Below are positions 46,731 through 59,319 of a stretch of 64,000 bases of DNA, in pieces. A program made the translations under genes and the position numbers. The notes beneath the pieces were generated by a model, which worked only from the letters and a program-made list of their open reading frames with translations, was not told the origin of the DNA and did no database searches. This stretch comes from Herpetosiphon geysericola. Its GTDB lineage: Bacteria; Chloroflexota; Chloroflexia; Chloroflexales; Herpetosiphonaceae. The stretch covers positions 24,726 to 88,725 of the forward strand of contig NZ_LGKP01000040.1 of the NCBI RefSeq assembly GCF_001306135.1. The letters are read 5' to 3'. How positions within the stretch are numbered: position 1 is the first letter of the stretch; each line of letters starts with the position of its first letter.

Positions 46731-47516
46731 TTAAATTTCAATCGTGCCTTCAAGATAGAAGACACACGAGCCAGCTAATTCAACGCGGTCGCCAACCAGC
46801 CGACAATTAATTTCGCCGCCCCGCTGCGAGGCTTGATAGGCGCGGAAACTGGTTTTATCCAAGCGCTCGGCCCAATAAGGCGTTAATGCACAGTGGGCAG
46901 CACCAGTCACCGGATCTTCAGGAATGCCCTTGGCAGGCGCAAAATAACGGCTGACAAAATCGTAGCCCTGATCGCCAGCCGCAGTTACCACCACCCCACT
47001 GCGATCAAATTGGGCGATTGCCGCTAGATTTGGTTTTAGCTCACGCACAAGCTGGGCATGCTCAAGTATCGCTGTATAATTAACAACATCGCTCAGCACC
47101 TCAACTGGCATCACCCCCAAGGCTTCGGCCAAACCTGGTGGCAACGCAACCCGCTGCCATGGCCGAATTGGAAAATTCAGCACATAGCCATCATCATTTT
47201 TGCTGACCATCAACGGCCCACTTTTAGAGGAAAATGTGACTTGGCTGCGGCTTGGCTCCAAGCGCTCGATCACCACCGCCGCACTTGCCAAGGTCGCATG
47301 GCCACACAGCGCCACCTCGGTGACTGGCGTAAACCAGCGAATCGCATATTGCTCGCCAGTCGGCACGATAAACGCCGTTTCGGCCAAATTATTTTCGCTG
47401 GCAATCGCGTGTAACACCGCATCAGCAGGAAATTCATCAAACAGCACAACCGCCGCTGGGTTGCCTGCAAACCGCCGCGTCGTAAACGCATCAACTTGAA
47501 AGATCGGCACGTGCAT
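46731..47516 (-). CDS. PhzF-family phenazine-biosynthesis-like isomerase
   Basis: IFQVDAFTTRRFAGNPAAVV is the PhzF/YddE N-terminal motif. Confidence 0.85.
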   Translation of the reverse strand: MHVPIFQVDAFTTRRFAGNPAAVVLFDEFPADAVLHAIASENNLAETAFIVPTGEQYAIRWFTPVTEVALCGHATLASAAVVIERLEPSRSQVTFSSKSGPLMVSKNDDGYVLNFPIRPWQRVALPPGLAEALGVMPVEVLSDVVNYTAILEHAQLVRELKPNLAAIAQFDRSGVVVTAAGDQGYDFVSRYFAPAKGIPEDPVTGAAHCALTPYWAERLDKTSFRAYQASQRGGEINCRLVGDRVELAGSCVFYLEGTIEI

Positions 47517-47544: not shown

Positions 47545-47760
47545 AGAAGCGAAGAAATGGGGATCGGTTGTTGGGAGCTGGGGATTGGTTATTGAGGGCT
47601 GGGAATCGGTCATTGAACAGATGATCAGAGACCATTGTGCAACTAAGCACTACCCCCGACCCCTAACTATGAGGGCTAGGGATCGGTCATTGAAACAGAA
47701 AATCGGCGACAGTTGTGCCAACCAAGCCCGATCCCCGGCCCCTAACCCCCGACCTCCAAC
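47545..47760. repeat. Larger GGGGATCGG-family element with terminal inverted G-rich ends and an internal ATCGGTCATTGAA direct repeat
   Basis: ggggatcggttgttgggagctggggattgg ... cccgatccccggcccctaacccccgacc. Confidence 0.55.
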
Positions 47761-48647: not shown

Positions 48648-50180
48648 CTACTCGATACTAAAGACCATCTCAACATCGCCAATCCGAATTCGGTCGCCTG
48701 GCCGTAGATGGTGCGGTTGGTAGGCGGTCATCGGCACGCCGTTGATGCTGGTGCCATTGATACTGCCCAAATCAATTAATAAATGATGATCGCCCTGTTG
48801 CTCAATAACAGCATGACGACGGGAAGCTACGCCACGATCATGCTCAGCCAAATCGATCTCAGGGTGATGATTTTGGGCAGGATCACGCCGCCCAATGCGG
48901 CAAGGAAAATGAGTTAATGCTAATTCCCAAACCGCGCGCGGCGAGGTAATGACCAGTTTTGGCACAGCTCGCTTGATTGCAGCGCCACACCCAGCGCAAA
49001 ATCGTGCATTAGGCTTATTCATGCGCCCACATTGATCACAAATTGGGCCATTGGCCTGTGGTGGCGGCGACCAAGCTGGAGTCTGAACTGGTGGCGCCCA
49101 CGATGGCACTGATTGCTGTGGCACCGGCTGCGCCATTGGTTGCTGATAATTTGGCTGTTGCGGCGCACCCCACGCTGGTGCTGGATTGGGATTCGGATTG
49201 CCCCACGCTGGTGCTGGATTGGGATTCTGGTTGCCCCACGCTGGTGCTGGATTGGAATTCGGATTGCTCCACGAAGGATCAGGATTGTTAAACACTGGCG
49301 CTGGCGTTGGCATCATCGTCGGATCATCAAGCTTATCGGGCACGATAACCCCACGATCAACCGCCAACAAGGCTTGCTCAAATGAAGCCATAGTTTGAAA
49401 GCGCTTATCGCGATCCATCGCCATGGCCTTGATAATCACCTGTTCCATCTCCGGTGTAACCGATTGATTATGTCGAATCAATGAGCCATCTTTGGGGGTT
49501 TGCAAGGGCACAGGCGGCAAGTTGGTGAGCATATGCAGCAAGGTCGCCCCCAAAGCATAAATATCGGCACGGGCATCAGTTTGGCCCTTGCCATATTGCT
49601 CTGGTGGTGCATAGCCCGCCGAACCCATTGCCACCGTATCTTTGCTTTTATTGGTTTTGTAGGTACGCGCCACGCCAAAATCGATCAGCTTAATAATGCC
49701 CTCAGGCGTAAGCATCACATTTGGCGGCTTCATATCGCGAAAAATAATTGGCGGATTTTGGGTGTGCAAATAATTCAACACCCGCGCAATTTGAATTCCC
49801 CAATTGACCACATCGCGTTGAAAAAATGGCGCATTCGTTTCACGCTGCTTATCTTCGAGCGTTTTGCCTTGCACAAACTCCATCACCAGCGTCGGGCGCC
49901 CAGCCTGATCGAAAGAATCGATCACTTTGGGTAAGTTTGGATGATCGAGCGTTTGCAACAATTGCGATTCTTGGTCGAAAAGCTTGCGATTTTCGGCAAT
50001 TTCTTCAGGCGCAGCCTCAACTGGTGGGCGCATCTCTTTTAATGCCCAGGTCGAGCCATCGCTCATGCGTTCACAGCGATAGACCGCGCCCATGCCGCCG
50101 CGCCCAATGAGGCCGAGAATCCGATATTGATCACGTTGTCCTTGAAGTATCGTGCCATCAGGCAGCAAATCAGCAAACAC
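48648..50180 (-). CDS. Ser/Thr protein kinase with Pro/Gln-rich repeat linker, zinc ribbon and C-terminal FHA domain
   Basis: Kinase core (ALKEM, FRDMKPPN, DFG, APE). PAPAWGNPNPN x3 repeat. CDQCG...CAGCG ribbon. FHA (CRIGR...RRHAVI...LIDLGSINGT). Confidence 0.85.
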   Translation of the reverse strand: MFADLLPDGTILQGQRDQYRILGLIGRGGMGAVYRCERMSDGSTWALKEMRPPVEAAPEEIAENRKLFDQESQLLQTLDHPNLPKVIDSFDQAGRPTLVMEFVQGKTLEDKQRETNAPFFQRDVVNWGIQIARVLNYLHTQNPPIIFRDMKPPNVMLTPEGIIKLIDFGVARTYKTNKSKDTVAMGSAGYAPPEQYGKGQTDARADIYALGATLLHMLTNLPPVPLQTPKDGSLIRHNQSVTPEMEQVIIKAMAMDRDKRFQTMASFEQALLAVDRGVIVPDKLDDPTMMPTPAPVFNNPDPSWSNPNSNPAPAWGNQNPNPAPAWGNPNPNPAPAWGAPQQPNYQQPMAQPVPQQSVPSWAPPVQTPAWSPPPQANGPICDQCGRMNKPNARFCAGCGAAIKRAVPKLVITSPRAVWELALTHFPCRIGRRDPAQNHHPEIDLAEHDRGVASRRHAVIEQQGDHHLLIDLGSINGTSINGVPMTAYQPHHLRPGDRIRIGDVEMVFSIE

Positions 50181-50444: not shown

Positions 50445-52268
50445 ATGTCAAATTTATTCCTGATCGCGATCGGCCCAGTTCAAGATTTTATCGCCAGTGC
50501 TCGCCGTACCCGCGACCTCTGGTTTGGTTCGTGGCTACTCAGCGAATTAGCCAAAGCGGTAGCAAAAAGCATTTATGAAAAAGAGGGAAAAGAAGCGCTG
50601 ATCTTCCCCTATCCAACCGATCTACCTCAAGATTTAGAGCCAAACAGTACATTCAACGTCCCTAACAAAATTCTCGCCAAAATTAAAGACGATCCCACAG
50701 GCCAAGCAGTTTTAGCTCGTGAGGCCTTAATCGCTCGATTGAATGAGATTCGCGAGGCAGCCTTTGCCAAAGTTAATGGCAAAATTGAGCGAGAGCGAGC
50801 GATTGAACAAATCGATGCATTAGTTGAATTCAATTGGGTTGCATTACCCTTAGCAAGCGATGATACTTATCGTGCAACCCGCCAGCAACTTGAGAACATG
50901 ATGGCGGCGCGGAAAAATACCCGTAATTTTGGTGCGGTAACGTGGGGTACCAACGATCCAAAATCCTCAATCGATGGTGAACGCGAATCGGTGATTGCTG
51001 AAAAATACTATCCCCCTCCTCAGTTGTCTAATACCTCACCAGAATACGCCAAAATCGTTGTCGATCTCTATCGCAATTATGGAATCAACGTTGGCGAACG
51101 TTTATCAGGCGTTGATATGCTCAAGCGTCATGGTCAAAAAGGCAAAGATTCAAGATTTCCAAGCACCTCACATATGGCAGCTGTACCAGTTTTTAATTAT
51201 TTGCTTGGAATGAATACCAAAGAGCAAAGTAAAAATAAGGTAGCCGAATCCTGGGATACATACATTGCTAATTTAAATACTATTCTTGCTATGCGAGAAT
51301 ATATTCGCAATGAAGTTACCCCCAAATCACAGGATATTTTTGAAGATTATGATGGTTCGCTTCTCTTTGCCGAACGTTTCAACGATGCCTTAGTAGGGGA
51401 AGATATTCAAAAGGCGCAACAATTTCTACATACATTTCTACAACCATTTCTTGGTACAAAGGTTCCCATTCCCTACTACGCCATTCTCCATGCTGATGGC
51501 GATGCGATGGGGAGTGTGATTAATAAACAAGAAGAGTTAATTGATCACCAAGATATTTCCAAACAATTAACAGTCTTTGCAGGGGAAGTAAAATCAATCG
51601 TTGAAGCAAATCAAGGAGCCTTAGTCTATTCCGGTGGCGATGATGTTTTAGCATTTTTACCGTTGCATACTGTATTGGAATGTGCCGATGCGTTGGCTAA
51701 AAGGTTTCAAACGCTGTTAAGTAACTTTAAAGATAAAACAGATCGTTCGCCAACGCTCTCGGTCGGCATTGCAATTGTGCACCACTTGGAGCCATTATCC
51801 GATGCCTTAGAGTTGGCACGCGCTGCCGAGAAAAAAGCCAAAGGCGTAGCAGGCAAAAATGCACTGGCCATCAATCTCAGCAAACGTGGCGGCACAGATC
51901 GAATTATCGTTGGCTCATGGATTGAAAGCACATATTCATTTTACAATCGACTTAAAAAATTAATTGAATGGCATCAAAACGATAAAATTCCCCTTAGCTT
52001 TGCTTTTGAACTGCATGATTTATCCATTCGCCTAAAAGACTTGCCTGCCAATATTTTTCACGCCGAGGCCAAACGAATTATCGAGCGCAAACATACCAGC
52101 AACGGGATAAAAGTTGACGGTGATATTGCGCAAAAACTCCTCTCCATGATTCATGATTTGGTTCCAGAAACGCTGACCGAAGCACACACACTGATCCAGC
52201 AATTTGCCGATGAAGTGATTATTGCGGGGTTTATTGCTCAAGCCCAAAACCTTAGTAACGGCAAATAA
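50445..52268 (+). CDS. cas10: Type III CRISPR-Cas Cas10/Cmr2, minimal HD-less form
   Basis: N-terminal IGPVQDFIASARRTRDLWFGSWLLS (Cmr2 signature) and palm GGDD motif (VYSGGDDVLAFLP). No HD motif. Good GGGGAG RBS. Confidence 0.85.
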   Translation: MSNLFLIAIGPVQDFIASARRTRDLWFGSWLLSELAKAVAKSIYEKEGKEALIFPYPTDLPQDLEPNSTFNVPNKILAKIKDDPTGQAVLAREALIARLNEIREAAFAKVNGKIERERAIEQIDALVEFNWVALPLASDDTYRATRQQLENMMAARKNTRNFGAVTWGTNDPKSSIDGERESVIAEKYYPPPQLSNTSPEYAKIVVDLYRNYGINVGERLSGVDMLKRHGQKGKDSRFPSTSHMAAVPVFNYLLGMNTKEQSKNKVAESWDTYIANLNTILAMREYIRNEVTPKSQDIFEDYDGSLLFAERFNDALVGEDIQKAQQFLHTFLQPFLGTKVPIPYYAILHADGDAMGSVINKQEELIDHQDISKQLTVFAGEVKSIVEANQGALVYSGGDDVLAFLPLHTVLECADALAKRFQTLLSNFKDKTDRSPTLSVGIAIVHHLEPLSDALELARAAEKKAKGVAGKNALAINLSKRGGTDRIIVGSWIESTYSFYNRLKKLIEWHQNDKIPLSFAFELHDLSIRLKDLPANIFHAEAKRIIERKHTSNGIKVDGDIAQKLLSMIHDLVPETLTEAHTLIQQFADEVIIAGFIAQAQNLSNGK

Positions 52269-52292
52269 CACAACATTTTGAGGAGGATTACG

Positions 52293-53741
52293 ATGGCAAA
52301 ACAAAGCCGCCGCGAACGGCATAACCAAAAACAACAAGCAAAAAAGCAAATGCATGCGCAAAACCAAATAGCCGACCCAATAATCGAGCATACTAGCCAC
52401 GTTCAGGTCGAAACATATGAGAATCCACCAAACACCAGCTGCGAAACACCAACCCAACAAACATGGCTGATCGAACCGCGTGATCCGTTGATTGTGCGCG
52501 ATGGCCGACCATTTAACAACACACCTGGAGCACGCGCCTATACCCAGTCGTTCCCGCCGCCATCAGTTTTGGCAGGGGTTATTCGCTCACAAACTGCCTA
52601 TGCTTCAAAACTCCAATTTACTCGTAACTCCGATGACAACCGACAGCAGGGAAATAAATTACAGCCAATTCAAATCTATGGGCCTTTATTATTCAAATTG
52701 CCCAATCCAAACAAAGAAAAAGATGAGCCTGAATTCTTATGCCATGCACCTGCCGATGCACTGTTATTTGAGCCTGAGGCCAAAACCAAGGCCCAAGAAT
52801 CTGACAATCAACAATCACCACCAACTAGACCTTGGCTCTGCCGCTTGGTGCCAATTCAGGTTCCTGAAAGGTTCGTCTGCGATTTTAATGAACTTGGCTT
52901 GGTTGGTTTAGTCAAAGCTGATCCACGTAAGCCAGCCAAAGATCAACCGCAATTTTGGTATTGGGAACATTTTCTGCACTGGTTGCAAGATCCTGAAGGA
53001 TTGATCAATAAGACCAATCCTCAAGCCTCAAACCCCAAGACAATCGCCGTGGGAGATTTGGGAATTAAAGGCTTGCCAATTGATCAACGAACTCATGTAC
53101 AGATTGATAGTGAGAGCCAAAGTGCTGAAGATGGCCGCTTATTTCAAACCCGTGGCCTAAGTTTTACCCAAACCAACGAGCAACAATTGGCCGAAGCGCG
53201 GCGTTTGGCATTATATGTGCACGCCGATTACCGCGATACAACTGGTTTAACTATCCCACAACCAAGCATCGCACCATTGGGCGGCGAACGCCGTTTGGCT
53301 CATTGGGCAAAAACCGATCAGAGCTTACCAGCATGCGATCAAGTTATCGTTGATGCAATCGTAAAAGCCAACGCATGCCGCGTGATTCTGCTCACCCCAG
53401 CAATGTTTAGTGAGGGCTATCGCCCAACGTGGCTATTCCAAGATCCCCAAGGTGTTCAGCCAACGCTTGCAGCAATTGCGATCAAGCGTGCTCAAGTTAT
53501 TTCAGGCTGGGATTTGGCAATTCATAAGCCGAAACCAACTCGCCGCCTAGCTCCCGCTGGCACGGTCTTGTTCCTGAAATTCGCTGAAAAGGAAAATTCG
53601 GCGGCAATTGAAGCATGGGTTCGTAACTATTGGATGCAATGCATCAGCGATGAAGAGCAAGATCGCCGCGATGGCTTTGGCTTGGCCGTATTTGGAACTT
53701 GGGATGGCGAGTTTGCTGAAATTAAGGGGGAAACTAAATGA
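52293..53741 (+). CDS. cmr3: Cmr3 (Cas5-group RAMP) with Lys/Gln-rich N-terminal extension
   Basis: DPLIVRDGRPF...SFPPPSVLAGVIRS is the canonical Cmr3 N-terminus. C-terminal G-rich loop DGFGLAVFG. ATG start with a GAGGAGG RBS. Confidence 0.85.
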   Translation: MAKQSRRERHNQKQQAKKQMHAQNQIADPIIEHTSHVQVETYENPPNTSCETPTQQTWLIEPRDPLIVRDGRPFNNTPGARAYTQSFPPPSVLAGVIRSQTAYASKLQFTRNSDDNRQQGNKLQPIQIYGPLLFKLPNPNKEKDEPEFLCHAPADALLFEPEAKTKAQESDNQQSPPTRPWLCRLVPIQVPERFVCDFNELGLVGLVKADPRKPAKDQPQFWYWEHFLHWLQDPEGLINKTNPQASNPKTIAVGDLGIKGLPIDQRTHVQIDSESQSAEDGRLFQTRGLSFTQTNEQQLAEARRLALYVHADYRDTTGLTIPQPSIAPLGGERRLAHWAKTDQSLPACDQVIVDAIVKANACRVILLTPAMFSEGYRPTWLFQDPQGVQPTLAAIAIKRAQVISGWDLAIHKPKPTRRLAPAGTVLFLKFAEKENSAAIEAWVRNYWMQCISDEEQDRRDGFGLAVFGTWDGEFAEIKGETK

Positions 53742-54142
53742 ATCGTAAGCCAAGAATTCCTGCACCAGAGCCTATAAAGTATCAAGCGCCAAATGAATTT
53801 ACTGTTGGAGAACACACCTATATCACCAAAACCCGCAGCTACAAACTGATCACCCCATTGTTTGGTGGTGGCGTTGAAGCTGGGCTGAACGACCCACTCA
53901 CGCCAATTCGCGCTAGTGGCATTCGCGGCCAATTGCGCTTTTGGTGGCGAGCTATTCGCGGCGGCGGCTATAGCTCAGTTGATGATTTACGGGCAAAAGA
54001 GGCTGAAATTTGGGGTAGTGCTGGAACTTCGTCTACTTCTGAAAAGAAAAAGGTGAATCAAGATTCTAGTAATCTAGTAGATGATCAAAATCAAGAAAAT
54101 AATAAATTAAAAAAATATCATTCCTATTCAAATCTCTGTTGA
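53738..54142 (+). CDS. cmr1: Cmr1 N-terminal RAMP domain; first fragment of a split or frameshifted cmr1
   Basis: ITPLFGGG...SGIRGQLRFWWRA RAMP motif. ATGA overlap with the cmr3 stop. Ends just after an A7 homopolymer. Confidence 0.7.
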   Translation: MNRKPRIPAPEPIKYQAPNEFTVGEHTYITKTRSYKLITPLFGGGVEAGLNDPLTPIRASGIRGQLRFWWRAIRGGGYSSVDDLRAKEAEIWGSAGTSSTSEKKKVNQDSSNLVDDQNQENNKLKKYHSYSNLC

Positions 54143-54179
54143 GATAATTTCTGATGGAGAAGAAAAATATCCATATGTT

Positions 54180-55217
54180 ATGGAAAAGAATGCTAGAGGA
54201 AATTATAATCCAGAGCCTATATCTAGTACTGCGCCTGCATATGTATCTTTTCCATTAAAGCCAGAAAGGAACGCTATAAGAAAATATGGATCTCAAACTC
54301 CTATCAATCCTATTCGTAATAAGATTATTTTTAGATTAAAAATTACCTACTATCAGCATCATAAACTGGAAATTCAAGCTGCACTATGGGCATGGGAGAC
54401 GTTTGGTGGAGTTGGTGGTCGTACCCGCCGTGGATTTGGTTCGATCACTCAGTGTGATAGTGATAATAAACCACAAAATGCAGAATCAGTTACGCAATGG
54501 CTAAAACAAAACATTAACAATTATACAGAAGATATTTCAAAAAGAGGTTTTAATTGGATTAATAATATTCCTAATATTGTAGAAAGTATTAACGAGAGTA
54601 AATTTTTCTGCTCAAAACAAAGCTTAAATGCTTTAAGTATTTGGAGTGATATGATAAATATGTTACAAATATTTCGTCATCAACGCATTCAGTATGGAAA
54701 AAAATTTGGAAGAAATTATTGGCCTGAGCCAGATTTTATTCGGAGAATTACCAAGAAAAGATCATATAGTCATAATAAGGATATAGTTACGATTAATAAA
54801 TTTCCGCGTGCAGCTTTTGGATTACCAATAATATTCCAGTTTATCAATCGTAAAGATGAAAGTAATCCTAATGCTCCTAGAGATCCTTATGATACAACGC
54901 TAGTGCCCAAAGGTTTTGAGCGCTTTTCTAGCCCTTTGATTATTAAGATTATTCAATGTACCGATGAAAGTTATGTTGGAATTGCACTTATTTTGAGCAA
55001 AACCCAAGTCCCTAATCAATTACAACTGAAAAAGGGTGGAACTCCATTGCTCAATCCTAACGATCAAACCGAAGATTTTCAACATCTCTTGACACCTAAT
55101 GAAGCACAGAAAATCAAGCAAATTGAAGCTAATAAAGCGTCAGGCTCATTACTGAATCAAGGAACCGATATTCTTAAAGCATTTTTAGCCTATCTTAAGG
55201 AAAAAATGCCGCAATAA
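54180..55217 (+). CDS. cmr1: Cmr1 C-terminal RAMP domain; second fragment
   Basis: G-rich loop WETFGGVGGRTRRGFGSI. The open frame extends upstream to about 54111, through the A7 run. Very AT-rich codon usage. Confidence 0.7.
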   Translation: MEKNARGNYNPEPISSTAPAYVSFPLKPERNAIRKYGSQTPINPIRNKIIFRLKITYYQHHKLEIQAALWAWETFGGVGGRTRRGFGSITQCDSDNKPQNAESVTQWLKQNINNYTEDISKRGFNWINNIPNIVESINESKFFCSKQSLNALSIWSDMINMLQIFRHQRIQYGKKFGRNYWPEPDFIRRITKKRSYSHNKDIVTINKFPRAAFGLPIIFQFINRKDESNPNAPRDPYDTTLVPKGFERFSSPLIIKIIQCTDESYVGIALILSKTQVPNQLQLKKGGTPLLNPNDQTEDFQHLLTPNEAQKIKQIEANKASGSLLNQGTDILKAFLAYLKEKMPQ

Positions 55218-55286
55218 TCTACTGTTACTAGGTAAAAAATACTGTTCTCAAAGCATTTTTAGCCTATCTTAAGAAGGAGCTAGATA

Positions 55287-56168
55287 ATGACCACCAAACT
55301 CGTTTTTGTCCATGCCCTTTCACCACTCCATGCTGGCACTGGCCAAGGTTCCGGCGTGATCGATTTGCCGATTGCCCGCGAAAAAGCCACCAATTTGCCC
55401 TATTTGCCTGGCTCATCGCTCAAAGGCCCGTTGCGTGATAGTTACACTGGCGCTCGTAAAGATGAAATTTTTGGAACAGCATCAGATAACGCCACTGGTA
55501 GTGCAGGCTTTGTACAATTTTCTGATCTGCGCTTGTTATGCATGCCGGTGCGCAGCTTGTATGGAACCTTCGCATGGGTCACTTCGCCGTATATTCTCAA
55601 TCGCCTTGCCCGTGAAATCAAAGACCTTTTTACTGAAAATATCCCACCAAGCTGGATCAAAACCCCTGATGTGGAGCAATGTTTTGTTGCTGCAAACTCA
55701 GCACTTAAATCAAACTTACCAAAATCAGCAAAGCACAAGGATATTTATTTAGAAGATTTGGATTTTGAATATCAAGCGGATCAAGCTGAGCTAGTAACCC
55801 AATGGGTTGAGTGGCTGAAAAAACGTATTTTTGGTGATTCACCAGAGTGGCAAACGATGTTTGTTGAGCGTTTTTGCATCGTCAATGATGATGTGTTTAG
55901 TTTTCTTTTGAATACTGCCACCGAAATAACTGCTCGGATTCGGCTTAACGATGAAACCAAAACCGTTGCTGATGGTCAACTTTGGTATGAAGAAGCCTTG
56001 CCAGCCGAATCGATTTTGACTGGCTTGATGTTAATTGCTCCGCCAGCCTCAAAAACAGAGGTAGGAGACAGCATTAAGACTGAGCTACCACGACTTTGGC
56101 AAAAACCAATTCAACTTGGAGGCAAGGCCACCGTCGGGCGCGGAATTTGTCGCGTGATTGTGAAATAG
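55287..56168 (+). CDS. cmr4: Cmr4 (Cas7 backbone subunit, target-RNA slicer)
   Basis: VFVHALSPLHAGTGQGSGVIDLPIAREKATNLPYLPGSSLKGPLR is a textbook Cmr4 N-terminus including the catalytic Asp region. C-terminal G-rich loop GGKATVGRG. Confidence 0.9.
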   Translation: MTTKLVFVHALSPLHAGTGQGSGVIDLPIAREKATNLPYLPGSSLKGPLRDSYTGARKDEIFGTASDNATGSAGFVQFSDLRLLCMPVRSLYGTFAWVTSPYILNRLAREIKDLFTENIPPSWIKTPDVEQCFVAANSALKSNLPKSAKHKDIYLEDLDFEYQADQAELVTQWVEWLKKRIFGDSPEWQTMFVERFCIVNDDVFSFLLNTATEITARIRLNDETKTVADGQLWYEEALPAESILTGLMLIAPPASKTEVGDSIKTELPRLWQKPIQLGGKATVGRGICRVIVK

Positions 56169-56178
56169 GAGTAGCACT

Positions 56179-56634
56179 ATGAGTAATTCAGTTTTTCAAA
56201 CTCGTGATCAGAAATTTGCTGCTTCAGCGTATGCTCATATTGAAACAGTCTTAAAACAATATCCAAAACCAGTTGATAAACCCAACACTGAGAAATCCAA
56301 AGAAGAGAAATCTATTGAGGCAAAATATCAAACGAGTCGCAATGTATATGGCTCGATGGCGCACAAATTACCAATCTTGATTAGAAATGCAGGTTTAGTT
56401 CAAGCTTTAGCATTTGCCCAATCACGCGATAAGTCAGAGATTAACTTATTTCTAGAACATCTTGCCATAACTATTAACTTTACCTGTAAAGCTCAAGATT
56501 TCGCTGCTAAAGTAGCTGAATTAGAATTAGCTGAGTATATGTACCGAACTCAGCAAGCTTTAGATGCATTACTTTGGTACAAGCGTTTTGTTCAAAGCAT
56601 TCTTGATATTGATCCAAGCAATGCAATTCAATAA
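56179..56634 (+). CDS. cmr5: Cmr5 small subunit
   Basis: 151 aa, helical, LPILIRNAGLVQALAF motif. Position between cmr4 and cmr6. Confidence 0.75.
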   Translation: MSNSVFQTRDQKFAASAYAHIETVLKQYPKPVDKPNTEKSKEEKSIEAKYQTSRNVYGSMAHKLPILIRNAGLVQALAFAQSRDKSEINLFLEHLAITINFTCKAQDFAAKVAELELAEYMYRTQQALDALLWYKRFVQSILDIDPSNAIQ

Positions 56635-56648
56635 ACATTGAGGTATTT

Positions 56649-57572
56649 ATGAATAGTCGGCGTGATAGTTTAAATAAGGTCACAGTAGACAATGTAGCGC
56701 ATGCAGGCTTATGGCTTGACCGCTATTTGCCCGAACAACCTGAAAATAAAGCGAATCAGCAACGTCCGAATAATGCACTAGTCGGAAAACATCCAGTTAA
56801 ACATGATGAATGCACATCAGATAATCCATTAACTAAACATTTTTGTAGAGGTTCGCAGATTGCCAGAAAAGAACCAGTATTAAAACTCTATCAACAATTT
56901 TTTGCTCGCTGGTTGAACGCGTTAAAGGAAATTCCCGATATTTGCTTGCTGAAGGCGGAAGTCAAGGGTCGCATGGTCGTGGGGCTGGGAGCCGAAAGCG
57001 TGCTCGAAAACTCGATTGCTTTGCAGCGCACCTATGGCATGCCGTACATTCCTGGCAGTGCCTTGAAGGGATTGGCATCGAGCTTCGCCCACCAACGCCT
57101 CGGCCAAGGAGCTGCCAATGCAGATACACCCAACGATTGGGCAAAGGGTGGCAAATTTCATCGCGAATTATTTGGCACAACCGAGCTAAGTGGCTGCGTT
57201 AGCTTTTACGATGCCTTGTATATGCCTGATACTGCTGAAACTGGAGGCCCATTACATCCCGATGTGATTACCGTGCATCATCCTGAGTATTATCAAGGCA
57301 AGAAAAAGCCTAATCCCAATGGTGATCAAGACCAAAGTATGCCACCAGCCGATTGGGATAGCCCGACGATTATTCAGTTTCTCAGCGCGACTGGTCACTA
57401 TTTAGTAGCACTCAGCGGAGTAGAAGGTTGGCGTGATACCGCCCGCACATTGCTAGCCAATGGCCTTACGCATATAGGCATTGGCGCCAAAACTTCTAGT
57501 GGGTATGGACGGATGGAGCTTAAATCCCTTAATGAAGCCGAGATTGTAAAGTTATTAAATCAAGGAGTTTAA
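56649..57572 (+). CDS. cmr6: Cmr6 (Cas7-group RAMP)
   Basis: GRMVVGLGAESVLEN...PYIPGSALKGLASS and C-terminal G-rich loop IGIGAKTSSGYGRM. Confidence 0.85.
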   Translation: MNSRRDSLNKVTVDNVAHAGLWLDRYLPEQPENKANQQRPNNALVGKHPVKHDECTSDNPLTKHFCRGSQIARKEPVLKLYQQFFARWLNALKEIPDICLLKAEVKGRMVVGLGAESVLENSIALQRTYGMPYIPGSALKGLASSFAHQRLGQGAANADTPNDWAKGGKFHRELFGTTELSGCVSFYDALYMPDTAETGGPLHPDVITVHHPEYYQGKKKPNPNGDQDQSMPPADWDSPTIIQFLSATGHYLVALSGVEGWRDTARTLLANGLTHIGIGAKTSSGYGRMELKSLNEAEIVKLLNQGV

Positions 57573-57574
57573 TT

Positions 57575-58915
57575 ATGACTAAGAAAGCCATCGCATTTTT
57601 AGGCAAAGGCCGCTATAGTTTTACCCAATATTGTTATACAGATTCTAAAACTGGAAATGTTATCAAAGCCGATTGGAATAAATATTTCAGTGCAACATTA
57701 ACATTTTTCTATCCTGATATTGAAGAACTATATATCGTTATGACAGAAGAGGCGAGAAAAGAGCATTGGGATAACTCGGAAAATCCTAAAAATCTCAAAG
57801 AAACCTTGAAATTGCAAAAAGTTCGGGTGATACCTGTTCCTATTGATTCTGGAAGAAATGATACGGAACTTTGGGAAATTTTCAAGTCTATCGTTAAGGT
57901 TATTGATTATAATGATGAGATCATTTTTGATATTACAAATGCTTTTCGCTCACAACCAGTGATAACAATGATTATTGCATCATTTATTAAAGTTATTAAA
58001 AACGCCAAAATTACCCATTTGGTGTATGGTGCTTGGGATGCAAGAGTAGAAGAGAAAGATTCAGAAAATAACATTAAATTCTCTGAATCTCCTGTTTTCG
58101 ACCTGTCTGCCTTCTTAACCCTACTCGACTGGACTACTGCCACCAACACCTTTATTCAAACAGGTCGTGCCGAACAATTGACCAAACTTGCTGAAACGTT
58201 TAAAAACGATGCAGTTGAAGGTTTTGCCAAACAAGTACACAAACTTTCGCAAGAGTTATTAACTACCCGCCCAGTTGGCGTGATGCAAGCTGCCTCAGGC
58301 TTTGAGCAAGCCTTAGCCAAGGTTGAAGCCGCCGTGCAACAAAACCCAGCCATGCAACCGTATCAACAGTTGTTGGAACGGATCAAAGATGAATATAGCC
58401 CGTTTGCGATTGCTACTGAGCCGATGGCAGATTTGAGTGAGGCTTATGCGACAGCTCGCCAGCAACAACGGGCTTTTTTAGCAGTCCAACTCGAGATGAT
58501 TAAGTGGTATCTCGAAAAGGGATTACCAATTCAAGCTATGACTTTAGCCCGCGAGTGGCTGATATTGTTGAGTGTCTATTACCAAAATGCTGATGGTGAG
58601 AAAGTTGATATGTTTATTTATAATGAAAAGAAGGTTATTGAGAGTTTTATCAATGGCTATTCACCTCAGCAAAACAATAACCGATCACAACGAAATGACA
58701 ACAAGAAACCTAAAATGGTTATGTCGGCTAAACTACAAAAGTCAATCGAAAAAATACAAGCTGTTTGGGATAGCGAAGATGCTTCAATTCGCACTATTCG
58801 TAATGATATTGCTCATTGTGGGCTGGATATAGGTAATAGCCGAACCGCCACAGAAATTGCTGAACAGGCTGAAACTATCTGCCAACGGCTGTATGCTTTA
58901 TTACCGACCGAATAA
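57575..58915 (+). CDS. csx1: Csx1-family CARF-HEPN ribonuclease
   Basis: N-terminal Rossmann-like CARF (KAIAFLGKGRYSF...). C-terminal HEPN R-x4-H motif (IRNDIAHCG). 446 aa. Confidence 0.8.
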   Translation: MTKKAIAFLGKGRYSFTQYCYTDSKTGNVIKADWNKYFSATLTFFYPDIEELYIVMTEEARKEHWDNSENPKNLKETLKLQKVRVIPVPIDSGRNDTELWEIFKSIVKVIDYNDEIIFDITNAFRSQPVITMIIASFIKVIKNAKITHLVYGAWDARVEEKDSENNIKFSESPVFDLSAFLTLLDWTTATNTFIQTGRAEQLTKLAETFKNDAVEGFAKQVHKLSQELLTTRPVGVMQAASGFEQALAKVEAAVQQNPAMQPYQQLLERIKDEYSPFAIATEPMADLSEAYATARQQQRAFLAVQLEMIKWYLEKGLPIQAMTLAREWLILLSVYYQNADGEKVDMFIYNEKKVIESFINGYSPQQNNNRSQRNDNKKPKMVMSAKLQKSIEKIQAVWDSEDASIRTIRNDIAHCGLDIGNSRTATEIAEQAETICQRLYALLPTE

Positions 58916-58929
58916 TTGAAGGAAAGCCT

Positions 58930-59319
58930 ATGCTTCTGATTAACTTTGCCCATCCATTGACTGATGCGCAGTTTAGCCAAGTCGTGGCCATCGTTGAAGA
59001 AACTCCACAACTATGTTTTGTCGATACCCAAGTGAGCCGGATGCGGCCTTTGGGCGAGGTTGCTTATGATTTGGTTGAAAGCGTTAGCTTGAAAACCGCC
59101 GATTGGCAAACTATACCGATTATTATCAATCCCCCAGGCTTGGCTCCATTGGCCTTGGCAGTTATCGCCGAGTTGCACGGGCGTTCAGGCTATTTTCTGC
59201 CAATTATCAATATGCGGCCTGTGCCCAAGACTACCCCAACCATCTTCGAGGTAGCAGAAATTTGCAATTTGGATGCAATTCGCCAAGTTGCACGTACACG
59301 GCGCATTCCCAAGCTGTAG
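58930..59319 (+). CDS. Uncharacterised small alpha/beta protein in the type III locus (candidate accessory or ring-nuclease-like)
   Basis: 129-aa ORF with an RBS (GAAGGA). Alternating beta-alpha pattern (LLINFAHP...IPIIINPPGLAPLALAVIAEL). Followed by a strong terminator. Confidence 0.5.
   Translation: MLLINFAHPLTDAQFSQVVAIVEETPQLCFVDTQVSRMRPLGEVAYDLVESVSLKTADWQTIPIIINPPGLAPLALAVIAELHGRSGYFLPIINMRPVPKTTPTIFEVAEICNLDAIRQVARTRRIPKL

What the first reader, a model, noticed from the sequence alone, without database searches (positions are those of the whole stretch)
53738..55280. cmr1 split at an A7 homopolymer inside a strikingly AT-rich segment bounded by a 24-bp direct repeat
The two RAMP halves of Cmr1 lie in different frames. 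The downstream frame stays open back to about 54111, and the upstream frame ends just after an A7 run near 54109-54115. A +1 shift in that run would fuse them into a Cmr1 of about 480 aa. That points to a sequencing error, a phase-variable slippery site or a pseudogene. The segment from about 54000 to 55250 is about 30-40% GC, against about 50% for neighbouring cas genes and about 56% for the window. The sequence AAAGCATTTTTAGCCTATCTTAAG occurs twice, about 75 bp apart (about 55175 and 55250); one copy encodes the Cmr1 C-terminus and the other precedes the cmr4 RBS. Together these look like a recombination scar from replacement of the cmr1 cassette by a gene from an AT-rich donor, that is, a mosaic effector.
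Basis: seen in the sequence. Interest (0 to 1): 0.55.

Follow-up and report, generated by a model that had tools for sequence, protein, structure and literature searches.

The report
Frameshifted cmr1 in a mosaic Cmr operon
One subunit gene (cmr1) of an ordinary type III-B CRISPR operon in Herpetosiphon geysericola is broken by a single extra A, while the AT-rich stretch and the repeat are shared with related species, whose versions of the operon have been shuffled together by recombination.

Summary
The three observations are real. An A7 run at 54109-54115 splits cmr1. The 3' three-quarters of cmr1 is 33% GC. A 24-nt repeat (29 nt at 28/29) lies at 55176-55199 and 55250-55273.

The window is Herpetosiphon geysericola. 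The same type III-B operon sits at the same chromosomal site in at least five other Herpetosiphon lineages. Ten related loci have A6 and an intact Cmr1 of 493-498 aa, so the window carries a private +1 insertion. That is either a recent inactivating mutation or an assembly error; the reads are needed to decide.

The AT-richness is not private. All five cmr1 alleles compared show the same GC step near codon 90 (GC3 0.22 in the window). The repeat, with its identical 32-nt filler, also occurs in H. gulosus and in a metagenomic Herpetosiphon-like contig.

The operon is nevertheless strongly mosaic. Flanking genes group the window with H. llansteffanensis. The AT-rich part of cmr1 groups with H. 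aurantiacus (dS 0.05-0.10 against 0.74-1.2 in the flanks). cmr5 groups with H. gulosus.

So "mosaic effector with a recombination scar" is right in spirit, but "recent replacement from an AT-rich donor" is not. This is an ordinary system with a modestly interesting evolutionary pattern.

The parts
50445..52268 (+). cmr2/cas10 (607 aa), with GGDD cyclase palm and no HD domain
   Evidence: Pfam Cas10-Cmr2_palm2 7.5e-39 and Cmr2_N; TIGR02577 8.2e-67. GGDD seen in the translation.
52278..53741 (+). cmr3 (487 aa)
   Evidence: Pfam Cas_Cmr3 1.3e-74; TIGR01888.
53738..54142 (+). cmr1 5' fragment (134 aa, frame 0). It carries strand 1 and the RFWWRA helix of RAMP domain 1. GC-normal (0.50) up to about 54030.
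   Evidence: TIGR01894 Cmr1 5.3e-14, 52.7 bits against a cut-off of 28.65. Annotated separately as KPL80188.1.
54109..54115 (+). A7 homopolymer carrying a +1 insertion relative to the A6 of relatives
   Evidence: The pairwise alignment with L001 shows A6. The five-way alignment shows A6 in L012. All 10 pattern matches in other loci are 44 nt long, which means A6.
54111..55217 (+). cmr1 3' fragment in the +1 frame (368 codons open; first ATG at 54180, giving 345 aa)
   Evidence: Identical to KPL80189.1 / WP_054537066.1 of H. geysericola. Pfam RAMPs profile positions 91-188.
54001..55250 (+). AT-rich, hypervariable part of cmr1 (GC 0.33, GC3 0.22). It is a patchwork of blocks whose nearest relatives are L012, L001 or L011.
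   Evidence: composition. (block-wise nearest relatives). (dS).
55171..55199 (+). Repeat copy 1: codes for the conserved ..LKAFLAYLK end of Cmr1
   Evidence: The 20-mer AAGCATTTTTAGCNTATCTT is also found in H. aurantiacus, H. llansteffanensis and Herpetosiphon sp. NSE202.
55200..55249 (+). 50 nt absent from H. aurantiacus: the alternative Cmr1 tail EKMPQ plus stop (55200-55217), then a 32-nt non-coding filler (55218-55249)
   Evidence: 74-nt gap in L001 and L009. The filler is identical in L012 and L028 and unique in the window.
55245..55273 (+). Repeat copy 2: remnant of a cmr1 3' end of the H. aurantiacus type, now non-coding and lying just upstream of the cmr4 RBS
   Evidence: Aligns to the in-frame cmr1 end of L001 and L009, which overlaps the cmr4 start.
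55287..56168 (+). cmr4 (293 aa)
   Evidence: TIGR02580 7.9e-74.
56179..56634 (+). cmr5 (151 aa), AT-rich, H. gulosus-like allele
   Evidence: Pfam Cas_Cmr5. Quartet sites 4:12:49 in favour of window+L012.
56649..57572 (+). cmr6 (307 aa)
   Evidence: TIGR01898 1.4e-35.
57575..58915 (+). CARF-type accessory gene (TM1812/Csx1-like, 446 aa)
   Evidence: TIGR02221 9.5e-26 and the DxTHG motif.
58930..59319 (+). csx15 (129 aa)
   Evidence: NF040560 2.7e-41.

Best explanation
This is a standard type III-B (Cmr) CRISPR effector operon: cmr2-cmr3-cmr1-cmr4-cmr5-cmr6-csx1-like-csx15. It sits at a chromosomal site conserved across the genus Herpetosiphon.

Its genes alternate between two kinds of block. 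Conserved blocks have normal GC and diverge at about the species level. Hypervariable blocks are AT-rich and represent much older allelic lineages. Homologous recombination among Herpetosiphon lineages, crossing over in the conserved blocks, has reshuffled these pieces. In H. geysericola the operon is therefore a patchwork:
- the flanks and the csx1-like gene resemble H. llansteffanensis;
- most of the AT-rich body of cmr1 resembles H. aurantiacus;
- the cmr1-cmr4 junction, cmr5 and the 5' part of cmr6 resemble H. gulosus.

The 24/29-nt direct repeat is an older hybrid junction carried by several lineages. A cmr1 end with the tail KEKMP(Q/K)* and a 32-nt spacer lies in front of the remnant of a second kind of cmr1 end, the one that overlaps the cmr4 start in H. 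aurantiacus.

On top of this, the H. geysericola sequence has one extra A in an A6 run, inside a disordered low-complexity loop of the first RAMP domain. I take this most likely (about 60:40) to be a real, recent loss-of-function mutation in a strain kept in culture since 1970, rather than an assembly error. If real, full-length Cmr1 would be made only through rare slippage. The Cmr2-6 core would then work at the weak basal level reported for a Cmr1-less complex.

Shown: the anatomy, the A6/A7 difference, the shared AT-richness, the shared junction and the mosaicism.
Inferred: that the extra A is real, its functional consequence, and the order of events at the junction.
For: Identity of the system and organism:
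- Family assignments of all eight genes.
- The 345-aa and 134-aa fragments are identical to H. geysericola proteins KPL80189.1 and KPL80188.1.

Conserved site:
- The operon is syntenic, between the Ser/Thr kinase-FHA gene and the methyltransferase gene, in L001 (matches the H. aurantiacus DSM 785 genome, L015, over the 560 nt compared), L009, L011 (H. llansteffanensis) and L012 (H. gulosus).
- L019 (Herpetosiphon sp. NSE202) and L028 show the same arrangement in part.

Frameshift:
- A6 in L001-L008, L012 and L015 against A7 in the window.
- Cmr1 is intact, 452-498 aa, in all relatives.
- The downstream frame has no further lesion.
- No other split gene was found among 10 suspicious ORF neighbours in the window.
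- The genome was sequenced on Illumina MiSeq and assembled with SPAdes 3.1.1 (PMC4653791). Illumina chemistry is not prone to homopolymer indels at 7 nt (my knowledge).
- In the AF2 model of the intact ortholog (pLDDT 84.7), the site maps to the end of a low-confidence loop (residues 101-130, pLDDT 51-58), just before strand 138-145. This loop is absent or different in other alleles.

AT-richness is ancestral:
- cmr1 GC is 0.364-0.375 in all five alleles, with the same profile of about 0.45, 0.55, then 0.25-0.45.
- Window cmr1: GC3 is 0.22 for codons 89-492 and 0.44 for codons 1-88. Flanking genes have GC3 of about 0.5.
- GC correlates with conservation (Spearman 0.55, p 4e-9).

Mosaicism (quartet sites counted as win+L001: win+L011: win+L012):
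- flanks 16:124:8 and 14:277:11;
- cmr1 AT-rich part 61:8:9;
- cmr5 4:12:49;
- runs test 209 runs against 439 +/- 12 in shuffles.
- dS between the window and L001 is 0.74-1.23 in flanking genes, but 0.098 (codons 108-310) and 0.053 (codons 368-486) in cmr1, with an H. llansteffanensis-like block of dS 0.77 between them.
- Block map at 30-nt resolution.
- Columns with conserved amino acids keep identical codons as often in the cas genes (0.28-0.51) as in the flanks (0.39-0.51).

Junction:
- L001 and L009 have a single copy, with the cmr1 stop overlapping the cmr4 ATG.
- L012 and L028 have copy 1 + identical filler + copy 2.
- L011 and L019 have the KEKMPKEK tail plus a different spacer.

Role of Cmr1:
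- Deleting Cmr1-alpha in S. islandicus eliminated RNA interference in vivo and strongly impaired DNA interference.
- Cmr2-6 forms a stable core complex with basal activity that Cmr1 strongly enhances.
Against: - Without the reads, a consensus error (true A6) cannot be excluded.
- The genome announcement lists 5,335 genes but 4,688 CDSs. This could mean many annotated pseudogenes, and so a consensus with some indel errors.
- The absence of any second lesion in cmr1 fits an error as well as it fits a very recent mutation.
- Alignment of hypervariable blocks at 20-50% identity is unreliable, so exact breakpoints are approximate.
- Only five or six lineages were compared, so the true donors may be unsampled.
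- The order of events at the junction is not resolved. It could be illegitimate joining of two junction types, or a duplication later deleted in the H. aurantiacus line.
- No CRISPR array or cas6 lies in the window, so activity of the operon is assumed, not shown.
Confidence: 0.6

Rival explanations
1. The extra A is a sequencing or assembly error. The organism has A6 and an intact 492-aa Cmr1, so nothing is biologically wrong with the gene.
For: - Every related locus has A6.
- The downstream frame is completely undamaged.
- All other cas genes are intact and of orthologous length.
- The assembly is a 2015 draft made with SPAdes 3.1.1.
- The gap between gene and CDS counts in that paper could reflect many frameshifted genes.
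- AT-rich regions can have low coverage (my knowledge).
Against: - Illumina reads rarely produce indels at 7-nt homopolymers (my knowledge).
- The other nine homopolymers of 7 nt in the window cause no visible frameshift.
- Ten suspicious ORF neighbours all turned out to be complete, separate genes.
- About 18 kb of aligned flanking genes have orthologous lengths.
Confidence: 0.35
2. The A-run is a functional switch. Either it is a phase-variable contingency tract, or it is a programmed +1 ribosomal or transcriptional slippage site that sets the level of Cmr1.
For: - A +1 slip of tRNA-Lys on A-AAA-AAA would restore exactly the orthologous sequence ..NKLKNIIP...
- Homopolymeric A runs are known slippage sites (my knowledge).
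Against: - The shifted arrangement is not conserved: ten relatives are in frame with A6.
- The tract is only 7 nt. Efficient transcriptional slippage and phase variation usually need 8-9 nt or more (my knowledge).
- No Shine-Dalgarno-like stimulator is visible upstream and no stop or rare codon sits at the site (sequence).
- No A-run longer than 7 nt exists anywhere in the window.
Confidence: 0.04
3. One reading: the cmr1 cassette of this genome was recently replaced by a gene from an AT-rich foreign donor, and the 24-nt repeat marks the edge of the replaced DNA.
For: - There is a sharp GC step near 54000-54030 and a return to higher GC after 55290.
- A repeat sits at the 3' edge.
- The cmr1 body does have a different nearest relative from the flanks.
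Against: - The same GC step and level occur in all five Herpetosiphon alleles.
- The best hits of the gene are all Herpetosiphon: 84%, 63%, 57% and 53% identity, against 45% or less elsewhere.
- The relative closest to the AT-rich part is H. aurantiacus, a genus-mate with about 50% GC in its flanks.
- The repeat and filler are shared with H. gulosus and L028, next to quite different cmr1 alleles.
- Other AT-rich patches (cmr2 51100-51700, cmr5, the csx1-like gene) show that this is a property of the whole operon.
- No match in the plasmid or phage collections.
Confidence: 0.05

Closest known systems
Type III-B (Cmr) CRISPR-Cas effector modules, e.g. Pyrococcus furiosus Cmr and Sulfolobus islandicus Cmr-alpha
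   Same: The subunit set is the same: Cas10/Cmr2 with GGDD, Cmr3, Cmr1, Cmr4, Cmr5 and Cmr6, plus a CARF accessory gene. The Cmr1 profile hits solved Cmr1 structures 9z7q, 4l6u, 4w8x and 6s6b. The RFWWRA helix is conserved.
   Different: Cas10 has no HD domain. No array or cas6 lies within 64 kb. cmr1 is out of frame in this genome.
Intact cmr1 of Herpetosiphon aurantiacus DSM 785 (P0001, 498 aa; loci L001 and L015)
   Same: Same chromosomal site and gene order. It is 84-85% identical in protein overall, and 95-99% identical in DNA over most of 54060-55196. The AT-richness is the same.
   Different: It has A6 instead of A7. It has a single copy of the AFLAYL block, with the cmr1 stop overlapping the cmr4 ATG, and lacks the 74 nt present in the window. 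Its accessory gene is different (284-aa CARF_Card1).
Mosaic, recombining defence and surface-antigen loci, and module shuffling of cas operons (from my knowledge: Takeuchi et al. 2012, Held et al. 2013, the Makarova/Koonin classification papers)
   Same: Divergent allelic blocks are separated by conserved blocks. Block trees disagree with the species tree. Blocks at the same site are far older than the species.
   Different: Here the mosaic is intragenic, with blocks of 100-1000 nt inside the Cmr subunit genes, at a fixed chromosomal site and across species. I found no description of this for Herpetosiphon in the paper library. Those searches were not exhaustive.
Homology-facilitated illegitimate recombination or unequal crossover scars (my knowledge)
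   Same: A short duplicated homologous block brackets a filler. The sequences on the two sides have different nearest relatives.
   Different: The mechanism was not observed. The junction is old and shared by at least three lineages. The single-copy form in H. aurantiacus could equally be a later deletion between the two copies.

Membership tests
Type III-B CRISPR-Cas (Cmr) effector module | Cas10/Cmr2 large subunit with cyclase palm domains | tested here: met
   PF22335 7.5e-39 and TIGR02577 226 bits against a cut-off of 79.4. GGDD is present in the translation.
Type III-B CRISPR-Cas (Cmr) effector module | Cmr3, Cmr4, Cmr5 and Cmr6 encoded together | tested here: met
   All four score above the NCBIfam cut-offs: 105.2/100.4, 249/87, 36.8/27.9 and 123.2/51.1 bits.
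Type III-B CRISPR-Cas (Cmr) effector module | An intact cmr1 open reading frame | tested here: not met
   The gene is split at the A7 run into 134-aa and 345-aa ORFs. The one-base-corrected 492-aa product is 84% identical, with 100% coverage, to the H. aurantiacus Cmr1.
Type III-B CRISPR-Cas (Cmr) effector module | CRISPR array and Cas6 available to supply crRNA | tested here: inconclusive
   There is no array in the 64-kb window. The genome paper reports 6 arrays elsewhere in the genome.
Programmed frameshift or transcriptional slippage gene | The out-of-frame arrangement is conserved in orthologs | tested here: not met
   Ten related loci have in-frame A6.
Programmed frameshift or transcriptional slippage gene | A recognised slippery motif with a stimulator, or a long run (9 nt or more) | tested here: not met
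   The run is A7 only. No Shine-Dalgarno-like element or stop codon is at the site.
Phase-variable contingency locus | Tract length varies among isolates or reads of one species | not testable with these tools
   Only one H. geysericola assembly is available. The exact-protein look-ups found no other contig.
Recent horizontal replacement from an AT-rich foreign donor | The compositional anomaly is private to the recipient, and the closest relatives lie outside the genus | tested here: not met
   The same GC profile is seen in five alleles. The top hits are all Herpetosiphon. No plasmid or phage match.
Recombinational mosaic among congeners | Adjacent blocks have significantly different nearest relatives, and synonymous divergence is far below that of the flanks | tested here: met
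   Quartet site counts and the runs test. dS of 0.05-0.10 against 0.74-1.23 in the flanks. Block maps.

The most novel reading that the evidence does not exclude
The Herpetosiphon Cmr operon may be maintained as a genus-wide pool of ancient allelic cassettes. The AT-rich hypervariable blocks in Cmr1, Cmr5, parts of Cmr2, Cmr3 and Cmr6, and the accessory genes would be far older than the species. They would be separated by conserved anchor blocks, such as the AFLAYL-coding 20-mer, which is identical at every synonymous site in six alleles. Cross-species homologous recombination would keep re-assorting the cassettes. This would be an MHC-like regime of balancing or diversifying selection on a type III effector, perhaps driven by phage anti-CRISPR proteins that bind Cmr subunits. 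The low GC3 of the cassettes would follow from their rarely recombining.
Probability: 0.25. Interest if true: 0.6.

Novelty: new member of a known kind. Interest (0 to 1): 0.33.

Why it matters
For annotation: the two H. geysericola CDSs KPL80188.1 and KPL80189.1 are one cmr1 gene disrupted by a single extra A. They should be treated as a pseudogene or as a sequencing error, not as two proteins. If the mutation is real, the type strain has a crippled type III-B effector, which matters for anyone using it in phage or CRISPR work.

More generally, the locus is a clean, well-anchored example of intragenic shuffling of Cmr subunit segments between species at a fixed chromosomal site. Allelic blocks older than the species coexist with conserved blocks that diverge at the species level. 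With more genomes it could be used to test whether type III effector subunits are under diversifying or balancing selection, for example from anti-CRISPRs. It could also test whether recombination frequency explains the striking GC3 contrast within single genes.

Tried and rejected
- Exact-protein look-ups of the window's Cmr4 and of the 345-aa fragment found no other contig. No independent copy of the H. geysericola locus could therefore be examined.
- A metagenome scan for the A-run context, allowing A6-A9, returned nothing. The pattern itself works on held loci.
- The genome-contig scan with the 20-mer anchor returned three Herpetosiphon genomes and 12 unrelated matches that look like chance hits. 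It did not return H. geysericola or H. gulosus.
- The plasmid and phage collections hold nothing similar to 54000-55290. A mobile AT-rich donor was therefore not supported.
- I looked for a CRISPR array in the window and found none.
- I looked for other frameshifted genes in the window as a proxy for assembly quality. Ten suspicious ORF neighbours are all complete, separate genes.
- A two-piece functional Cmr1 was considered and rejected. The first in-frame ATG of the 3' part (54180), and the ATT start used by RefSeq (54147), both lie downstream of the strand IPIQISVEI that follows the break.
- dN/dS between the window and L001 in the recently shared cmr1 blocks (0.5 and 0.34) rests on too few changes to show either relaxed or positive selection.
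- A tandem duplication of the 74 nt was rejected as the origin of the repeat, because only 24-29 nt are repeated.
- Literature searches for earlier descriptions of mosaic Cmr genes, or of Herpetosiphon CRISPR evolution, found nothing specific.
- A diversity-generating retroelement was considered as a source of the hypervariability but not tested. No reverse transcriptase gene is called in the syntenic loci.


Full report
**What is in the sequence**

- cmr2/cas10, 50445-52268
- cmr3, 52278-53741
- cmr1, 53738-55217, in two frames
- cmr4, 55287-56168
- cmr5, 56179-56634
- cmr6, 56649-57572
- a TM1812/Csx1-like CARF gene, 57575-58915
- csx15, 58930-59319

Cas10 has the GGDD cyclase motif and no HD domain. 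No CRISPR array lies anywhere in the 64-kb window.

- An A7 run lies at 54109-54115. The upstream cmr1 frame ends at 54142. The +1 frame is open from 54111 to the stop at 55215-55217.
- The stretch 54000-55250 is 33.3% GC.
- The 24-mer AAAGCATTTTTAGCCTATCTTAAG occurs at 55176-55199 and 55250-55273. It extends to 29 nt at 28/29 identity, 74 nt start to start.

One correction: the break lies within the first RAMP domain, not between two RAMP halves.

**Where the window comes from, and its relatives**

The 345-aa and 134-aa fragments are identical to Herpetosiphon geysericola proteins KPL80189.1 and KPL80188.1, which are annotated as two separate CDSs. Removing one A gives a 492-aa protein. It is 84% identical over its full length to the 498-aa Cmr1 of H. 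aurantiacus. The next best hits are other Herpetosiphon proteins at 63, 57 and 53%. Everything outside the group is at or below 45%.

The operon occupies the same chromosomal site, between a Ser/Thr kinase-FHA gene and a methyltransferase gene, in several lineages:
- H. aurantiacus (L001-L008; L001 matches the DSM 785 genome, L015, over the 560 nt compared)
- an unnamed Herpetosiphon (L009)
- H. llansteffanensis (L011)
- H. gulosus (L012)

Partial loci from Herpetosiphon sp. NSE202 (L019) and a 604-kb metagenomic contig (L028) show the same arrangement.

**The frameshift**

The pairwise alignment with H. aurantiacus and the five-way alignment show A6 where the window has A7. The flanking sequence is otherwise almost identical. 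A pattern allowing A6 to A9 matched ten other loci, all at the length that corresponds to A6. The window therefore has a private +1 insertion.

In the protein, the site falls at the end of a Ser/Lys/Asn/Asp/Gln-rich insertion that only some alleles possess. In an AlphaFold model of the intact H. aurantiacus ortholog (mean pLDDT 84.7), this insertion is a low-confidence loop (residues 101-130, pLDDT 51-58) immediately before strand 138-145.

The downstream part has no start codon that would include that strand. The first ATG is at 54180, and RefSeq's alternative 356-aa model begins at an ATT at 54147. A working two-piece Cmr1 is therefore unlikely.

Programmed frameshifting or phase variation finds no support. 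The shifted state is not conserved, the tract is short, and no stimulatory element is visible.

Two readings remain: a real recent mutation, or a consensus error. The following favour a real change:
- The genome was sequenced on Illumina MiSeq and assembled with SPAdes 3.1.1 (PMC4653791).
- The other nine 7-nt homopolymers in the window cause no visible frameshift.
- Ten suspicious ORF neighbours proved to be complete, separate genes.
- The strain has been in culture since 1970.

Against that, cmr1 has no second lesion, and the published counts of 5,335 genes against 4,688 CDSs leave an error quite possible. I put it at roughly 60:40 in favour of a real mutation. Only the reads can settle it.

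If the mutation is real, work on S. islandicus Cmr-alpha suggests a strongly weakened effector. Deletion of Cmr1 eliminated RNA interference in vivo and strongly impaired DNA interference. Cmr2-6 still formed a stable core complex with basal activity (PMC5737701).

**The AT-rich segment**

It is not peculiar to this genome. All five cmr1 alleles have 36.4-37.5% GC. All show the same profile along the gene: about 0.45 and 0.55 in the first 300 nt, then 0.25-0.45. This holds even though the alleles are only 47-85% identical in protein.

The effect is compositional and does not come only from amino-acid content. In the window, GC3 is 0.22 for codons 89-492, 0.44 for codons 1-88, and about 0.5 in flanking genes.

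cmr5 (GC 0.355, GC3 0.24), part of cmr2 and the accessory genes are similarly AT-rich in every lineage. Across the operon, GC correlates with conservation (Spearman 0.55 over 98 bins, p 4e-9). No similar DNA exists in the plasmid or phage collections.

The idea of a recent import from an AT-rich donor is therefore not supported. Why the variable blocks are AT-rich at synonymous sites remains unexplained (note 3).

**The mosaic**

Flanking genes place the window next to H. llansteffanensis. Quartet-informative sites, counted as window+L001: window+L011: window+L012, are 16:124:8 upstream and 14:277:11 downstream. Inside the operon the nearest relative changes every 100-1000 nt. The counts are:
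- cmr1 AT-rich part, 61:8:9, grouping with H. aurantiacus
- cmr5, 4:12:49, grouping with H. gulosus
- the csx1-like gene, 4:148:1, grouping with H. llansteffanensis

Site patterns are far more clustered than in shuffles: 209 runs against 439 +/- 12.

Synonymous divergence between the window and H. aurantiacus is 0.74-1.23 in four flanking genes. It is only 0.098 and 0.053 in the two large cmr1 blocks. Between those blocks, at about 54670-54840, lies a block with dS 0.77 whose closest relative is H. llansteffanensis. The stretch 54030-54150, which holds the A-run, is nearly identical to H. gulosus.

Columns with invariant amino acids keep identical codons about as often in the cas genes (0.28-0.51) as in the flanks (0.39-0.51). 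The conserved blocks are thus about as old as the species. The variable blocks, at 20-60% nucleotide identity between some pairs, are much older allelic lineages.

The picture is homologous exchange among congeners, crossing over in conserved blocks such as those encoding GIRGQLRFWWRA, WPEPD.IRRIT, FPRAAFGLPIIF and AFLAYL. It is mosaic genus-wide and at fine scale, rather than through one cassette replacement.

**The direct repeat**

H. aurantiacus and L009 have a single copy of the block. There cmr1 ends ..KAFLAYLAKELR*, and its stop overlaps the cmr4 ATG.

H. llansteffanensis and NSE202 end ..EAFLAYL(K/E)(E/G)KMPKEK*, followed by a roughly 45-nt spacer and a divergent cmr4.

The window, H. 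gulosus and L028 have both kinds of end. Copy 1 carries the KEKMP(Q/K)-type tail. A 32-nt filler follows, identical in all three. Then comes copy 2, which is the H. aurantiacus-type end and is now non-coding. Then comes the RBS and an H. aurantiacus-type cmr4.

The cmr1 alleles in front of this junction are only 45-57% identical to one another. The junction is therefore an old structural variant that travels with cmr4. It is not the edge of DNA recently inserted into H. geysericola.

In the window, sequence up to 55196 is H. aurantiacus-like and sequence from 55200 onward is H. gulosus-like. This places a crossover inside the conserved block itself. The 20-mer is identical at all six synonymous positions in the five alleles aligned, and the same sequence is present in NSE202.

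I could not determine the order of events. The double form may have arisen by illegitimate joining of the two junction types. Alternatively, the single H. aurantiacus form may be a later deletion between the two copies. Distant Cmr1 proteins end at the AFLxxL motif with no tail, which does not settle the question.

**Comparison with what is known, and verdict**

The system is a regular type III-B operon. Its Cmr1 profile matches solved Cmr1 structures. Shuffling of cas modules and recombination at defence loci are well known (my knowledge). I found no description of this particular intragenic, cross-species mosaic in Herpetosiphon, but the searches were limited.

The frameshift is an ordinary pseudogene or an error. 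The AT-richness and the repeat are inherited features of the gene family. I rate the finding as a new member of a known kind, with modest interest (0.33).

The most novel reading still open is that the operon is kept as a pool of ancient allelic cassettes re-assorted across species under selection from phage counter-defence (probability about 0.25).

Noticed in passing
window 46731-47516 (- strand): A PhzF-like gene (PF02567, 1e-55) sits between the peptidase U32 gene and the hydrolase gene only in the window. H. aurantiacus and H. gulosus have nothing at that spot. L009 has Fic, sigma-70 and GAF-histidine kinase genes there instead. This looks like a second variable insertion site about 3 kb upstream of the Cmr operon.
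   Followed up: partly
window 49168-49273: A 33-nt tandem repeat (3.2 copies, 91% matches) lies inside the Ser/Thr kinase-FHA gene. It coincides with a local drop in identity between species (0.52-0.76 against about 0.88 around it).
   Followed up: no
window 57575-58915; L001 13861-14715; L011 9636-11834: The CARF accessory gene downstream of cmr6 is swapped between lineages. The window and L009 have a 446-aa TM1812/Csx1-like gene. H. aurantiacus and H. gulosus have a 284-aa CARF_Card1-like gene, and L028 has an open frame of similar size (about 290 aa) at the same position. H. llansteffanensis has both genes in tandem.
   Followed up: partly
window 50445-52268: Cas10/Cmr2 is short (607 aa). 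It has an intact GGDD motif and no HD nuclease domain. The system therefore probably relies on cOA signalling to the CARF protein rather than on DNA cleavage by Cas10 (the inference is mine).
   Followed up: partly
window 47558-47694: Degenerate 21-25-nt repeats (TGGGGATCGGTTATTGAGAGC-like, 3-4 copies) lie in the intergenic region between the PhzF-like gene and the hydrolase gene.
   Followed up: no
window 54147-55217: RefSeq holds a second, 356-aa model of the 3' cmr1 fragment (WP_330218474.1). Its length corresponds to an ATT start at 54147. The public annotation treats the two halves as separate proteins rather than as a pseudogene.
   Followed up: yes
window 50445-59319 (whole operon): Within single genes, GC3 differs about two-fold between conserved blocks and hypervariable blocks (0.44 against 0.22 in cmr1). 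GC tracks conservation across the operon (Spearman 0.55). The cause is unknown. Possibilities are biased gene conversion in the blocks that recombine, or an old low-GC origin of the operon.
   Followed up: partly
window 1-64000: No CRISPR array or cas6, cas1 or cas2 gene was seen in the window or next to the operon in any syntenic locus. The genome paper reports six arrays elsewhere, so the Cmr module must use crRNAs made in trans.
   Followed up: partly
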